Origin: Eledone cirrhosa
Lineage: Eukaryota
Assembly: GCA_964016885.1 (NCBI GenBank)
Contig: OZ024764.1
Span: 21,576,001-21,640,000 of the forward strand
Reading direction: 5' to 3'
Length of the DNA stretch: 64,000 bases
A model generated the notes under the pieces. The model ran no database searches and had not been told where the DNA came from. It saw only the letters and a program-made list of their open reading frames with translations. This document shows positions 15,661-50,766 of this stretch, piece after piece. The stretch's first letter is position 1; every line of letters begins with the position of its first letter. Position numbers and translations under genes: made by a program.

Positions 15661-16775
15661 ATGTCGAAAAATATAGTAAAATCACCATTCCACTGTGATA
15701 TCTGTGGTAAATCATTTTCTCGTAGTAATCAGCTAACTACTCACAAACGTAGTCATACAGGAGAGAAGCCTTATCACTGTGAAATCTGTGGTAAATCATT
15801 CAGTTACGGTAGTAGCATCAGAGTTCACAAACAAATTCATACAGGAGAGAAGCCACATCACTGTGACATCTGTAGTAAATCATTCTCTTGCAGAGATAGC
15901 TTAACTAATCACAAACGTATTCATACAGGAGAGAAACCATATCACTGTGACATCTGTGGTAAATCATTCAGTCAGAGTAATAACTTAACTACTCACAAAC
16001 GTATTCATACAGGAGAGAAGCCACATCACTGTGACATCTGTAGTAAATCATTCTCTTGCAGAGATAGCTTAACTAATCACAAACGTATTCATACAGGAGA
16101 GAAACCATATCACTGTGACATCTGCGGTAATTCATTCTCTCAGAGTAATCACCTAACTACTCACAAACGTATTCATACAGGAGAGAAACCATATCACTGT
16201 GATATCTGTGGTAAAACATTCTCTGACAGAAGTAGCTTTGTTAAACACCAACGTATTCATACAGGAGAGAAGCCATATCAATGTGACACCTGTGATAAAT
16301 CATTCTCTCATAGTAGTCACCTAACTACTCACAAACGTATTCATACAGGAGAGAAGACATATCAGTGTGACATCTGTGGTAATTCATTCTCTCATAGTAA
16401 TAACCTAACTACTCACAAACGTACTCATATGGGAGAGAACCATATCACTGTGACATCTGTGGTAAATCATTCGCTGACAGAAGTTGCTTAGCTACCCACA
16501 GACGTACTCATACAGGAGAGAAGCCATATCACTGTGACATCTGTGGTAAATCATTCTCTCGTAGTAATCATCTAACTATCCACAAACGTACTCATACAGG
16601 AGAGAAGCCATATCACTGTGACATCTGTGGTAAATCATTCTCTCATAGTAATCACCTAACTATCCACAAACGTACTCATACAGGAGAGAAGCCATATCAC
16701 TGTGACATCTGTGGTAAATCATTCTCTCAAAGTGGTAACTTAACCAAGCATGTGCGTATTCATACAGAAGTTTAG
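15661..16775 (+). pseudogene. C2H2 zinc-finger gene paralog 1: 9 in-frame fingers, then a 1-bp frameshift and 4 more fingers
   Basis: ORF 15661-16491 has TGEKP-linked fingers. The linker at about 16438 reads gagaaccatat instead of gagaagccatat. The shifted frame continues to [11 protein letters not shown] (16775) as in the paralogs. May still make a 9-finger protein, or may be an assembly error. Confidence 0.85.
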
Positions 16776-17034
16776 CTGTGTCAATTTGAAACTCATTACA
16801 TCATACTACAACAAATGTGTAGATCCATCATCCTTGCTAAAACTGGGGATAACCTTGTAGGTTTTACCTATGACAGGGATCATAAAACCAGGTTTCCATT
16901 TTTGAAGTAGTGTTTGAAGATTTTGTGTAAATTGAAGTTTTTCACATTAAACTTTGATTTATTATACTTTCACAGGTAAGATATATATTTGTATTTTTAG
17001 TAAAGGTTGGGAACTTCTGTAATTTAAACCTGCC

Positions 17035-17040
17035 AATAAA
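17035..17040 (+). terminator. Putative polyadenylation signal AATAAA
   Basis: About 260 nt after the ancestral stop and followed by a T/GT-rich tract. Conserved at 36073 and 51029. Confidence 0.55.
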
Positions 17041-17169
17041 ATGAAAACTTTTTTTGTTGCTAGTCAGACATTGATATTAATTCTATTGTCCTGTACATTG
17101 TCTCAAATATCACAGATTAAACAGATTTTAACAATATCAACAGAAATCAATAACTTGTAAGCCTAATAT

Positions 17170-46221: not shown

Positions 46222-47079
46222 TATATATATATATATATATATATATATACACACGTCACTTGATATAATTTTATAACTTTGTTCAACAGCACCACCAGCT
46301 ATCTCTCTCACACACACCCATTATCTTTCTCTCTCTATTTATAAAGGTGCCAGAAAAACCCCATATCTCGGGAACCTGTACATTGATTTACGTGAAACTT
46401 ATTTTATCCCATTTGTATTCCCATTTCAGGGTCAACTTCCTTTCAAACTATTTTCCCATTATACCCCGTTTTGGCTGTATTACATTACAGACAAGACACA
46501 TCACAGAGTTTTAGGTTTATAATGTTATAGTATCATGATAGGGTAATACAGTTATTTATAGACCTGTGGTAAATGTTGGTTCAGTCCACCCTGGGGGGTG
46601 TAAGTGTTGGTTCAGTCTACCCTGAGGGGTGTCAGTGTTGGTCAATGATAACCTTTATAACTAGAGGCCTGTTGGTGAGGACAAGCTGGAAGTGATGACA
46701 TCTTTCTGCTACCTGTGTGACATGTCAGCTGGAAGTGGAGCCAAGTTCACTGCCATCGTGCTGTGCCACTCCACAGGTAACAAGTTTAGGCAGCTTCTCC
46801 TAATCCTCAAGACATGCTGGCTACCATTAGACACCATGGGGCAGGTTTATAACACCTGTGGGAGAAGTGTGTTGTTTCATGCCAGCGAGACCTGGGCCAT
46901 GTTATCTGACTGTCTGAATTGACTCTGAAGAAATGACAGAGCTATGATCCACTGGATGTGTAGTGTGACCATTGAGGATGATGTCAGCTCAACTGAGCTC
47001 CTAAAAAAACTGCTGATCGACAACCTCAAGGATGTGTTTCACAGGAGACACATGCACTGGTATGGCCATGTTGTGCATT

Positions 47080-49317
47080 CTCTCTCAACTCATCTATGCT
47101 TGGTCGTTGATGCACATTGACATTGCACATCCAACGGAGCATACTTGCTTCATTTTTCTCCAGCCGTTGCATATCCTCTGCAGTTGCTGTCCGTGTCTCA
47201 CTACCGTGCAGCATCACACATCTCATGCAGGCATCACCAGCCATTCGTTCTTAGAGAGAAACCCTTCTTTGTCAACAGAGGAAGCAGCTCCCTAAACTTC
47301 TTCCAACCCGTCCTTATTCTAGATACTATGGCCTCTGGGCACCCTCCTCCCATGCTAATTTGATCACCTAGATACCGGAAGCTATCAACCACTTCTATAG
47401 AACCTACCTGCATTTGAAAAATGTATCTATCACTGCGACTTCTACCGTCAAATTTCCCTGTACATCTACTACATATGTATTTTTCCCTACCTGATAGTTT
47501 ACCTGCTATCCCACTACATTTCTTGTGTACCCAAAATCTGCATTGTGTACATTATAGAATTTATGCCAGTTCCTTTTCTACATATTGAACAAGGCCATTT
47601 CCCTGATGGAATGACAGTTTTGTCCTCTTTTCTACTCAACACTTGTCTTAGTTAGGTTCACTCTCAGTCCTCTTGATTCCAACTGCTGTTGTAATAGCCA
47701 GAATTTATTCTCTAGCTCCTCTACTGATTCTGCTATAAGAACCATATCGTCAGCATAGAGAACTTCCCATGGGCACCTAGTCTTAAACTCCTCTGTTATG
47801 ACTTGGAGGACTATAATGAACAAGAGCGGGCTGAGGACCGAACCCTGATGTACTCCTGCATCTGTAATTCCTCACTAAACTCCATGCCTACCCTCACTTT
47901 ACTGACAGCACCTCTGTACATAGCTTGCACTGACTTCACAAACTATTCCTCTACACCTAGTTTCCTTAGGGTTCACCAGATGACAGATTGGGGTACTCTA
48001 TCAAAGGCCTTCTCTAGGTCAACAAAAACTAAGTATAGTGGTTTTCTTCTCTAAGAACCTCTCTTGTAGTTGTCTCACTAAGAAGAGGGCATCTGTTTGA
48101 CTCTTTCTCTAAGTTGCGCTAGTATTCTTTCTGTCACTTTCATAACCTGATCCATCAGTTTTATACCCCTATAATTACTCCCCTCCAGAACATCCCCTTT
48201 ACCTTTACCTCAATTTATGAGAATACTGCTGCACCAGTCTTTGGGTATGACACCACCATATATAGCTTGATTAATGATGCATTCAACCAGTTTAATTCCT
48301 ACTTCTCTTGATGCCTTCAGCATCTCAGCAACTAACCCCAACAGTCCAGCGGACTTACCATTTTTCATTTCCTTAATTGGACCCTATAGTCGTCAATCTC
48401 AATAGCTGGTCCTTCTGTTGGGTCTACTGAAGGTAGCTCCCCTCCTATTCATTCTCCACATTCATCAGTCTCTCATAATGACATTTCCAGGCCTTCTTTT
48501 TTTTGAGAATCAGTGACACTAAGTGCACCAACATCCTGATTTACACTGACACACTGCCTTGCAATGTGGATCACCGCACATCTCTGATCTCCCCATCGCA
48601 GGACATTGGCAAACCTTCTACTCTCAGCTTCCCTGCATGTTAAGTAGGCCTGACATCTAGCTTCTCTCTTAGCGGCTGTGAATCGGTCTCTACCTCTACC
48701 ATTTTTCCAAGCCTTTTGTCTCTAATGGCTCTATCTACCGTGCTGTTCCACCACCAGGCCACCCTCTGTCTGGTTGGAGCTCTGCTCCAGCCACAAGTTT
48801 CTTCAGTAACCTGCAGTAAGTTGTCACGTAAGAAATTCCAGTTATCATCTATGGCATATGACTCTAAATCGTCTTCTTTTTCGTCATACACATCTTGAAG
48901 GGCTTTCCTAAATTTATATTTTAGTGAAAGGTCTTTTAGTTTCCAGTCCTTCCTTTTTTAAACCTTCTTGTATGTCTCTCTTTGTCTCTTGCTTACTGAG
49001 ATGTCACTAACGACTAACCTATGTTGGGGGGTTACATTGTTCCCTGGGGTATGCCTTAGTATTTGACACCATCTGTCTCTCTTGCTACTTAACTAGCAAG
49101 AAGTCAATCTGTCTCATGTGCTCACCTGATTGGTAGGTTATTAGGTGGTTGGTAGGTTTCTTGAAGTGTTGCAAATGGTTAGTTCACTTGCATCACAAAA
49201 TACAAGAAGCCTCACTCCTTCTTCATTTCTTGAGCATGACCACCATGTACCCCAGTATATCCATCCTCGAACTGTCCAACATGACCATTGAAGTCCCCTG
49301 CTATTATAACTAGGTCT
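47080..49317 (-). mobile_element. Old RTE LINE (copy of 11258-13385, retaining the YADD segment)
   Basis: CPWEVLYADDMVLIAES at 47632-47823; otherwise collinear with 11258-13385. Confidence 0.9.
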
Positions 49318-49902
49318 CAAAATCTCATAGATTTGATATTATGAGAGATAAAGCATTTACTGTGAAAATATAATAGTATATATAGAGTAATGTGAATACT
49401 AAAGGGTTAATCTGATGTCACTAATAACTACTTTTATCTGTCAGTTTATTCTAATGTCACTAATAACTACTTTTATCAGTCAGTTTAATCTAATGTCACT
49501 AATAACTACTTTTATCAGTCAGTATAATCTACTACCACTAATAACTAACCTATGTTAGTCAGCACATTCTTCACCAAAGAAGGCCTTAGTATTTATTACA
49601 GTCCATTTATCAATATAGAAATATTATAGGAAATTTGTACTGATGTATTACAAGTTTCTGAGTATCTTATAATGTTCTTTTATTATTTCAGAATACCAGA
49701 GGACATTGGCATTAAAGAGCACGTTACATCAGACATATCCTCAACATTAACCATTTCTAATGAAAGACACTAACCATCATTTTCAAATAATTTTGAAAAC
49801 ACTCAACACTTTGAAGTGATTTAGTAATATAACTAAATTTCTCAGTATTAAGCTGTGAATTATGTGAGAAACTGAGGTGATTGATATCTTTTAGTAGGAG
49901 AT

Positions 49903-50766
49903 ATGTCGAAAAATATAGTAAAATCACCATTCCACTGTGATATCTGTGGTAAATCATTCTCTCGTAGTAATCACCTAACTACTCACAAACGTATTCATAC
50001 AGGAGAGAAGCCATATCACTGTGATATCTGTGGTAAATCATTCAGTCGCAGTAATACCTTAACTAATCACAAACATATTCATACAGGAGAGAAACCATAT
50101 CACTGTGATATTTGTGGGAAAACGTTCTCTAAAAATAATAACCTAACTACTCACAAACGTATTCATACAGGCGAGAAACCATATCACTGTGATATCTGTG
50201 GTAAAACGTTCTCTAAAAACAATAACCTAACTACTCACAAACGTATTCATACAGGAGAGAACCCATATCATTGTGATATCTGTGGTAAATCATTCCCTTG
50301 TAGTCATCACCTTACTATTCACAAACGTATTCACACAGGAGAGAAGCCATATCAATGTGATATCTGTGATAAATCATTCAGTGACAGTAGTAGCTTCAGA
50401 GTTCACAAACAAATTCATACAGGAGAGAAGCCACATCACTGTGACATCTGTGGTAAATCGTTCAGTCACAGAAATAACTTAATTACCCACAAACGTATTC
50501 ATACAGGAGAGAAGCCATATCACTGTGACATCTGTGGTAAATCATTCTCTCGTAGTAATCACCTAACTACTCACAAACTTATTCATACAGGAGAGAAGCC
50601 ATATCAATGTGACATCTGTGATAAATCATTCTCTCATAGTAATCACCTAACTACCCACAAACGTACTCATACAGGAGAGAAGCCATATCACTGTGACATC
50701 TGTGGTAAATCATTCTCCCAAAGTGATAACTTCACCAAGCATGTGCGTATTCATACAGAAGTTTAG
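49903..50766 (+). CDS. C2H2 zinc-finger protein paralog 3, 10 fingers
   Basis: 287-aa intact ORF with the same N-terminus [10 protein letters not shown] and C-terminus HVRIHTEV. Confidence 0.93.

What the first reader, a model, noticed from the sequence alone, without database searches (positions are those of the whole stretch)
15661..50766. Effector-less ZNF paralogs whose finger arrays are reshuffled like cassettes while the flanks stay nearly identical
Seen: the three genes share start ([10 protein letters not shown]), end (HVRIHTEV), UTRs and flanks, but have 13, 14 and 10 fingers. Recognition-helix types recur in different order and number: CRDSLT x2 in P1 and P2; DRSCLAT x1 in P1 and x2 in P2; RSNHLT x1, x3 and x2 in P1, P2 and P3; KNNNLT x2 only in P3. 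Variation concentrates in the helix positions while the backbone codons are homogenised. Established: PRDM9 and vertebrate KRAB-ZNF arrays evolve this way, and cephalopods have expanded C2H2 clusters. Inference: this is an 84-bp coding minisatellite generating new DNA-binding specificities without KRAB, SET or ZAD domains, possibly as a transposon-recognition system.
Basis: partly seen in the sequence, partly recalled or inferred. Interest (0 to 1): 0.75.

Follow-up and report, generated by a model that had tools for sequence, protein, structure and literature searches.

The report
Recombining cluster of 200 finger-only genes
The three genes belong to a block of about 200 near-identical zinc-finger genes that keep gaining, losing and swapping DNA-reading fingers, so the copies would bind different DNA, likely repeats or transposons, although one of the three is broken and non-coding repeats beside them change just as fast.

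Summary
The observation mostly holds, but it is a small slice of something larger. The three genes are 3 of at least 197 copies of a 15-20 kb unit; the 192 located span 4.7 Mb of one contig. Arrays hold 2-28 fingers, flanks differ by about 3%, and finger number differs in 23 of 28 pairs at 1-1.5% flank divergence. Corrections: P1 is frameshifted after finger 9, P2's first finger lacks a zinc ligand, order changes mostly by block gain and loss, and neighbouring non-coding minisatellites change as fast or faster. Flank variants are almost unlinked beyond 50 bp, so copies exchange sequence pervasively. Stops and structural residues are depleted. Contact residues are very diverse, but recent changes there run at the neutral rate, so ongoing positive selection is not shown. 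Exon structure supports finger-only proteins, and one run of unrecorded kind shows both predicted splice sites. Transposon targeting is untested. This works like young KRAB-zinc-finger clusters without the KRAB domain and is not PRDM9. The scan noted a similar cluster elsewhere in this genome.

The parts
5741..5852 (+). Predicted promoter and non-coding exon 1 of P1, ending at a GTAAGT donor
   Evidence: Conserved in all three units; 178 exact copies of a 32-nt donor motif in the genome; its use is predicted, not seen in reads
13935..14698 (.). Non-coding 39-bp minisatellite, 19.6 copies (3.6 copies at 33502-33642 and 49407-49547)
   Evidence: copy number 1-96 across the cluster
14843..16975 (+). 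P1 exon 2: 818-nt leader, finger array, 200 nt past the array's terminal stop
15661..16491 (+). P1 ORF, 276 aa, 9 in-frame fingers then frameshift; array of 13 units runs 15694-16775
16366..16448 (+). P1 unit 9, 83 bp, one base missing in the linker; shared with L097 and L138
17420..17786 (.). Non-coding 82-bp minisatellite in the 3' intron (also 36434-36910; one copy left in P3)
25520..25632 (+). Predicted promoter and exon 1 of P2
33787..36013 (+). P2 exon 2; a contig of run X23 begins at 33787 with 30 unlaid letters before it
33948..34553 (+). 606-bp leader segment present in long-form copies, deleted in short-form copies such as P3
   Evidence: 113 long and 66 short copies
34604..35803 (+). 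P2 ORF, 399 aa, 14 units, 13 with all four zinc ligands
43935..44048 (+). Predicted promoter and exon 1 of P3
49692..50969 (+). P3 exon 2 with the short 211-nt leader
49903..50766 (+). P3 ORF, 287 aa, 10 intact fingers; three units fewer than L136 and L207, whose flanks differ from it by 1 base in 900
50970..51709 (+). 740-bp GT..AG intron in the 3' untranslated part, skipped in a contig of run X23
   Evidence: joined form in 0 of 192 genomic copies
51710..52300 (+). Non-coding exon 3 (end approximate), a decayed copy of an exon-2-like zinc-finger exon; starts at 18117 in P1 and 37241 in P2
58890..61187 (+). Fourth, partial unit with exon 3 (59331) but no finger exon

Best explanation
This is a young-looking tandem family of about 200 finger-only C2H2 genes whose copies constantly exchange sequence, so that flanks stay alike while finger arrays change in number and content, and the products likely act as a varied set of DNA-binding proteins aimed at repeats or transposons. 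Shown: multi-gene blocks are duplicated across the cluster; whole fingers and finger blocks are gained and lost; flank variants and helix variants occur in all combinations over tens of bases; stops and fold-breaking changes are depleted; contact residues hold most of the diversity. Inferred: unequal crossing-over makes the gains and losses, and short-tract gene conversion makes the mosaics; the instability is the ordinary behaviour of any tandem repeat here, and selection only filters it, keeping frame and fold and leaving contact residues free or favoured to differ. Inferred with less support: with no effector domain the proteins would work by occupying sites or by recruiting partners through the fingers; repeats are the most likely targets (about 0.4 on its own).
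For: Cluster: 197 exact copies of the start motif, 192 located at 19.13-23.83 Mb of contig C25, median spacing 18 kb. Blocks of 7, 5, 4 and 4 genes duplicated. Finger number differs in 5 of 33, 5 of 15, 16 of 25, 23 of 28 and 72 of 79 nearest pairs as flank divergence rises. 83 common flank variants, 4 at CpG, where recurrent mutation predicts about 0.2; r2 0.12 within 20 bp and 0.03-0.05 beyond, permuted 0.017. Four-gamete pairs 77-88% among most helix site pairs. Rare-allele ratios to synonymous: stops 0.16-0.29, core Phe/Leu 0.22-0.31, Cys/His 0.37-0.58. 21 of 27 truncating events fall in the second half of the array, p=0.006. Contact pN 0.46 against non-helix pN 0.09 and overall pS 0.22. 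In-frame stop within 12 codons upstream of the ATG in 192 of 192. Both predicted splice sites of exon 2 show in run X23. Octopus zinc fingers are predicted in aggregate to bind transposons (PMC10547256, passages).
Against: 73 of 192 copies do not read through to the terminal stop. Recent changes at contact residues are 67 observed against 74.6 expected from flanks, ratio 0.90 (0.70-1.14), so no excess. The rare-allele ratio at contact residues swings from 0.86 to 2.09 with the cutoff, and pN/pS within the contact codons is only 1.19. Synonymous changes at Cys/His codons are also scarce, 1 of 11.6 expected, so conversion may mimic part of the purifying signal. Frameshift depletion is strong by one count (12 against 51) and modest by a stricter one (12 against 21). 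Long-form leaders hold mostly 13-16 upstream ATGs and an intron lies about 200 nt past the stop, both of which could limit protein output. Nothing here shows binding or a target.
Confidence: 0.6

Rival explanations
1. The cluster is mostly a runaway segmental amplification, a satellite-like block with few working genes; helix diversity is inherited from older fingers, and conversion alone keeps the backbone clean.
For: 73 of 192 truncated; non-coding repeats change as fast or faster; recent contact changes at the neutral rate and synonymous Cys/His changes also depleted; array changes continued around P1's frameshift in L097 and L138; the same 27-nt finger start has 5,125 exact copies genome-wide, 838 of them in the fetched coding regions.
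Against: Stops and core changes are depleted relative to synonymous changes in the same units, which conversion should treat alike; lesions are biased to the 3' half; splice donors are kept in 180 and acceptors in 161 copies; positions 2 and 3 have pN 0.35 and 0.49 against pS 0.10 and 0.11.
Confidence: 0.2
2. The genes are ordinary transcription factors diversifying for nervous-system or developmental regulation, with host genes rather than repeats as targets.
For: Expanded cephalopod C2H2 genes are expressed mainly in nervous tissue and fall into different co-expression modules (PMC12513265, text parts 1-2 and passages); purifying selection.
Against: Arrays change within about 1% flank divergence and promoter-exon 1 sequence is nearly identical among the copies seen, which fits poorly with stable, gene-specific regulation; no tissue data were available here.
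Confidence: 0.15
3. The proteins are detached PRDM9-type arrays that help place meiotic recombination, working with a separate methyltransferase.
For: Minisatellite behaviour and helix-focused diversity resemble PRDM9; the share of amino-acid diversity at contact sites, 0.39, overlaps the low end of complete PRDM9 genes, 0.33-1.0.
Against: No PR/SET match on contig C25 among 14 matches in the genome. The PR/SET-plus-finger locus L232 on C22 has fingers 23-29 of 84 bases away from the nearest cluster unit. Within-gene identity is 84% against 90% for the five L232 fingers seen.
Confidence: 0.04

Closest known systems
Young mouse KRAB-zinc-finger clusters, chromosome 4 (PMC12575710; passages read)
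   Same: Multi-megabase cluster grown by segmental duplication of blocks of 3-7 genes; many distinct fingerprint arrays; truncated copies mixed in.
   Different: No KRAB exon here; about 200 genes in 4.7 Mb against 38-47 distinct fingerprint arrays in 5.4-6.9 Mb; targets shown by ChIP in mouse, untested here.
Lineage-specific poly-zinc-finger expansions (Emerson and Thomas, PMC2604467; passages read)
   Same: Paralogues differ in finger number through whole-finger deletion and duplication; diversity concentrates at contact residues; genes with no annotated N-terminal domain are noted.
   Different: There fingers within a protein are diverse and conversion is described as short and affecting a few genes, except in chicken; here fingers are 84% identical and conversion is pervasive. 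Positive selection is significant there, equivocal here.
PRDM9 zinc-finger minisatellite (PMC5519329; passages and section 10 part 1 read)
   Same: 84-bp coding repeat with turnover by duplication and conversion, and diversity focused on contact residues.
   Different: One or a few genes with KRAB, SSXRD and SET domains; human 0.69 and mouse 0.91 of diversity at binding sites against 0.39 here (I used positions -1, 2, 3, 6 and did not check which positions that paper used).
Cephalopod C2H2 expansions (PMC12513265, PMC9068888, PMC9795677; passages read)
   Same: Hundreds to thousands of clustered, tandemly duplicated C2H2 genes; whether they silence transposons is called an open question.
   Different: The passages read describe counts, trees, clusters and expression, not finger-level turnover, conversion among paralogues or exon-level proof of a finger-only protein.
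Zebrafish FiNZ zinc-finger family (PMC10547256; passages and sections 7 and 10 read)
   Same: Large lineage-specific family outside mammals with variable contact residues.
   Different: FiNZ genes have a 28-aa acidic domain on a separate exon and knockdown de-represses transposons; no such exon is evident here and function is untested.

Membership tests
Tandem (poly) C2H2 zinc-finger genes | Several CX2CX12HX3H fingers joined by TGEKP-type linkers | tested here: met
   182 of 192 copies have 5 or more intact fingers in the ATG frame
Tandem (poly) C2H2 zinc-finger genes | Paralogues differ by whole-finger gain and loss | tested here: met
Tandem (poly) C2H2 zinc-finger genes | Positive selection at contact residues | tested here: inconclusive
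   Long-term pN/pS 2.06 against all synonymous sites, 1.19 within contact codons; recent ratio 0.90; cutoff-dependent; no codon-model test run because conversion breaks the single-tree assumption
Tandem (poly) C2H2 zinc-finger genes | Sequence-specific DNA binding | not testable with these tools
   Inferred from likeness to solved DNA-binding arrays such as ZFP568
KRAB-, FiNZ- or ZAD-zinc-finger repressors | N-terminal effector domain fused in frame | tested here: not met
   No such Pfam match in the three ORFs (best 25 families shown for P2 and P3) or in 107 plus-strand frames of 45 aa or more starting between 24400 and 49900; in-frame stop 6 codons upstream in 167 of 192 and within 12 in all. 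A rare splice acceptor close to the ATG is not excluded.
KRAB-, FiNZ- or ZAD-zinc-finger repressors | Binds and represses transposable elements | not testable with these tools
   No binding predictor or ChIP data available
PRDM9 | PR/SET domain in the gene | tested here: not met
   0 of 14 genome matches lie on contig C25
PRDM9 | Concerted evolution among fingers with diversity at contact sites | tested here: inconclusive
   Present but weaker: share 0.39, within-gene identity 84%
PRDM9 | Array polymorphic between individuals; directs hotspots | not testable with these tools
   One assembly only
Cephalopod C2H2 expansion | Cephalopod host and membership of an expanded clade | tested here: inconclusive
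   Protein searches named no cephalopod; the octopod label rests on recalled finger style and on earlier notes of the scan; related RNA-guess runs match the arrays at about 85%

The most novel reading that the evidence does not exclude
The cluster is a germline combinatorial library for DNA recognition: about 200 genes with one shared promoter behave as a freely recombining population in which conversion mixes contact residues within fingers and unequal exchange rebuilds arrays, giving a fast-turning repertoire that recognises new transposons with no effector domain, a third route beside KRAB and FiNZ genes.
Probability: 0.25. Interest if true: 0.8.

Novelty: new variant of a known kind. Interest (0 to 1): 0.5.

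Why it matters
Whether the huge cephalopod C2H2 expansion serves transposon control or neural regulation is an open question (PMC12513265). This cluster makes it testable: about 200 copies share the start and leader sequence, so one reagent could knock most of them down, and 99 distinct fingerprint arrays among 119 full-length copies can be assayed for binding. It also gives a rare built-in control, non-coding minisatellites in the same unit, which shows that the shuffling itself is generic and that only the filtering is special. A finger-only family that silences repeats would need a recruitment route not yet described.

Tried and rejected
An early global alignment suggested flank classes 10-19% apart and P1-P3 at 11%; local alignment showed this came from forced alignment across deletions, and true values are about 3%. 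The idea that the array is a special crossover hotspot was not supported: linkage is as low within flanks as across the array. An apparent excess of intact genes among short-leader copies (51 of 66 against 64 of 113, p=0.006) vanished with one gene per family (14 of 18 against 35 of 58, p=0.26). Run search: no RNA holder listed on record. Protein searches with P3 and with a retroelement ORF did not name the host group; a 64-aa open frame of the leader found no relative. The PHD match at 27102-27602 lies beside reverse-transcriptase remains in an insertion of P2's intron and was read as a retroelement part, not an effector exon. The protein atlas did not answer, so no look-alike data. The 2015 octopus genome paper was not held. 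No structure or complex prediction was run, as the fold is not in doubt. No binding-site prediction was attempted. Bootstrap intervals ignore shared ancestry of fingers and are too narrow.
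Full report
Observation. The three genes are at the stated places, with 13, 14 and 10 units of 84 bp and the stated helix counts. Three corrections matter. P1 unit 9 is one base short, so its ORF is 276 aa with 9 fingers and its last four units are out of frame; two other copies share the lesion. P2's first finger has lost a histidine. 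P3 lacks 606 bp of leader. Flanks differ by 3.0-3.3%, and the duplicated unit is the whole 15-20 kb, not just the gene.

Scale. The window lies at 21.58-21.64 Mb of contig C25 in a 3.0-Gb genome. The 25-nt start motif has 197 exact copies, none for the reversed control. The listed places of three pattern searches gave 192 starts between 19.13 and 23.83 Mb, median spacing 18 kb; I fetched 9 kb around each. This sample favours copies with undamaged motifs, and unlisted matches may lie elsewhere. Of 192, 119 read open to the terminal stop (2 of them lack the ATG), 46 have a length-changing lesion, 17 an in-frame stop and 10 no terminal finger. Arrays hold 2-28 units, median 13; 2,637 units gave 376 helix types. 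There are 99 distinct fingerprint arrays among the 119. Nearest relatives lie a median 0.8 Mb apart, and blocks of up to 7 genes are duplicated together.

Gene structure. Exon 2 begins 817 or 211 nt before the ATG; an in-frame stop lies 6 codons upstream in 167 of 192 copies and within 12 in all. A conserved element with a GTAAGT donor 6-10 kb upstream is the predicted non-coding exon 1. Pfam found only finger-type families in the ORFs and no effector domain in 107 plus-strand frames across the P2 and P3 units. Run X23, of the same coded organism as the best holders but of unrecorded kind, has a contig that skips 50970-51709 at GT..AG, a joined form found in 0 of 192 genomic copies, and a contig that begins exactly at the predicted acceptor 33787 with 30 unlaid letters, with no cover just upstream where run X21 has cover. 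I read this as spliced RNA from some family member; which copy, which tissue and the letters of the upstream exon were not shown. Exon 3 is a decayed copy of a zinc-finger exon.

How the arrays change. On a minimum spanning tree of flank distance (181 copies, 180 edges; 11 copies left out for no terminal finger or an interrupted array), finger number differs in 5 of 33 pairs below 0.2%, 5 of 15, 16 of 25, 23 of 28, and 72 of 79 above 1.5%. P3 itself has three units fewer than two copies whose flanks differ from it by one base in 900. Changes are mostly losses and duplications of contiguous blocks; 59 neighbouring finger pairs recur in three or more of 80 families against 9 after shuffling, and the terminal finger type is never internal. 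Instability is generic here.

Why the flanks stay alike. Among 80 family representatives, 83 flank sites carry a variant at 10% or more, only 4 at CpG, where recurrent mutation predicts about 0.2; r2 falls from 0.12 within 20 bp to 0.03-0.05 beyond, and about 85% of pairs show all four combinations, against 0.017 and 90% after permutation. The copies are therefore mosaics. I infer pervasive short-tract conversion and unequal exchange between paralogues, which means 3% divergence need not be an age. The same mosaic pattern holds inside fingers, so residues at -1 pair with several residue pairs at 2 and 3.

Selection. On 101 edges under 1.5% (1,118 unit pairs with at most 3 differences), changes relative to the flank rate were: synonymous 0.89, Cys/His 0.47, core Phe/Leu 0.16, stops 0.34, contact residues 0.90. 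Synonymous changes at Cys/His codons were also scarce (1 of 11.6), a warning that conversion erases new variants. Counting only rare alleles, relative to synonymous ones, stops were 0.16-0.29, core 0.22-0.31, Cys/His 0.37-0.58 and contact 0.86-2.09 depending on cutoff. Of 27 merged truncating events, 21 lie in the second half (the merging was heuristic). Frameshifts are 12 against 51 or 21 expected. Across fingers, contact pN is 0.46, non-helix pN 0.09 and overall pS 0.22; within contact codons pN/pS is 1.19, and about 3.5-4.5 at positions 2 and 3. So frame and fold are conserved weakly but clearly; contact residues are free and show a past excess of amino-acid change; ongoing positive selection is not shown.

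Function. The proteins resemble solved DNA-binding arrays. I commit to a repertoire of DNA-binding proteins most likely aimed at repeats, working by occupancy or finger-borne contacts. The support is indirect: octopus fingers are predicted in aggregate to bind transposons (PMC10547256, passages), and turnover this fast suits changing targets. Against high output: mostly 13-16 upstream ATGs in long leaders against 2 in short ones and a 3' intron. Rivals are a largely neutral amplification, neural regulation, and a PRDM9-like role; the last is unlikely, since no PR/SET match lies on this contig and the genome's PR/SET-plus-finger locus has different fingers.

Comparison and novelty. It works like young mouse KRAB-zinc-finger clusters (PMC12575710, passages) and like poly-finger expansions in general (PMC2604467, passages), but fails the effector-domain test for those families and the SET test for PRDM9. 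Clustered C2H2 expansions in cephalopods are published. The host is taken as an octopod from recall and from earlier notes of the scan, not from a call that names it. Eight literature searches listed no title on finger-level turnover or paralogue conversion in cephalopods; I saw listings for most hits, read no supplements, and subscription papers are missing, so this is weak evidence of absence. The scan noted the same pattern on another piece of this genome, and the finger start is common genome-wide, so the behaviour is probably family-wide. Verdict: real, larger than reported, a new variant of a known kind; interest 0.5.

Noticed in passing
window 51710-52300 (also 18117, 37241, 59331): The last, non-coding exon is a decayed duplicate of a zinc-finger exon, with 66-84% identical pieces including the first finger start.
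   Followed up: partly
window 33948-34553: A 606-bp deletion with short end homology removes most upstream ATGs (13-16 down to 2) in 66 of 179 copies; both forms appear in run X23.
   Followed up: partly
L057, L058, L070 and 15 more: 18 copies share one lesion that removes most of the last finger and ends the protein in HTGVL; it has spread across differing arrays and may be a working alternative end.
   Followed up: no
L232 (G000:C22:11548128-11551355): PR/SET exon followed by a finger array with a different backbone, a PRDM9-like gene.
   Followed up: partly
window 8472-10079 (+) and 31955-33256 (-): Two reverse-transcriptase ORFs inserted in the first introns of P1 and P2.
   Followed up: partly
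window 26586-30120: G+C-rich insertion in P2's first intron with PHD-finger and reverse-transcriptase remains, likely a retroelement.
   Followed up: no
window 2150-3761, 40233-41852, 55901-56826 (-): Repeated broken ORFs with a Spin-doc-type finger, likely a DNA transposon copied along with the unit.
   Followed up: no
window 13935-14698: The 39-bp intronic minisatellite ranges from 1 to 96 copies across the cluster and differs in 14 of 15 near-identical pairs with 11-40 copies.
   Followed up: partly
G000:C25 19.13-19.59, 20.97-21.30, 21.87-22.05 Mb: Stretches of the cluster are inverted; a 7-gene inverted block occurs twice with under 0.6% flank difference and could be a recent duplication or a merged haplotype.
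   Followed up: no
L225 (G000:C25:23855458-23865457): A further 11-finger array beyond the last listed start, so the cluster extends past 23.85 Mb.
   Followed up: no
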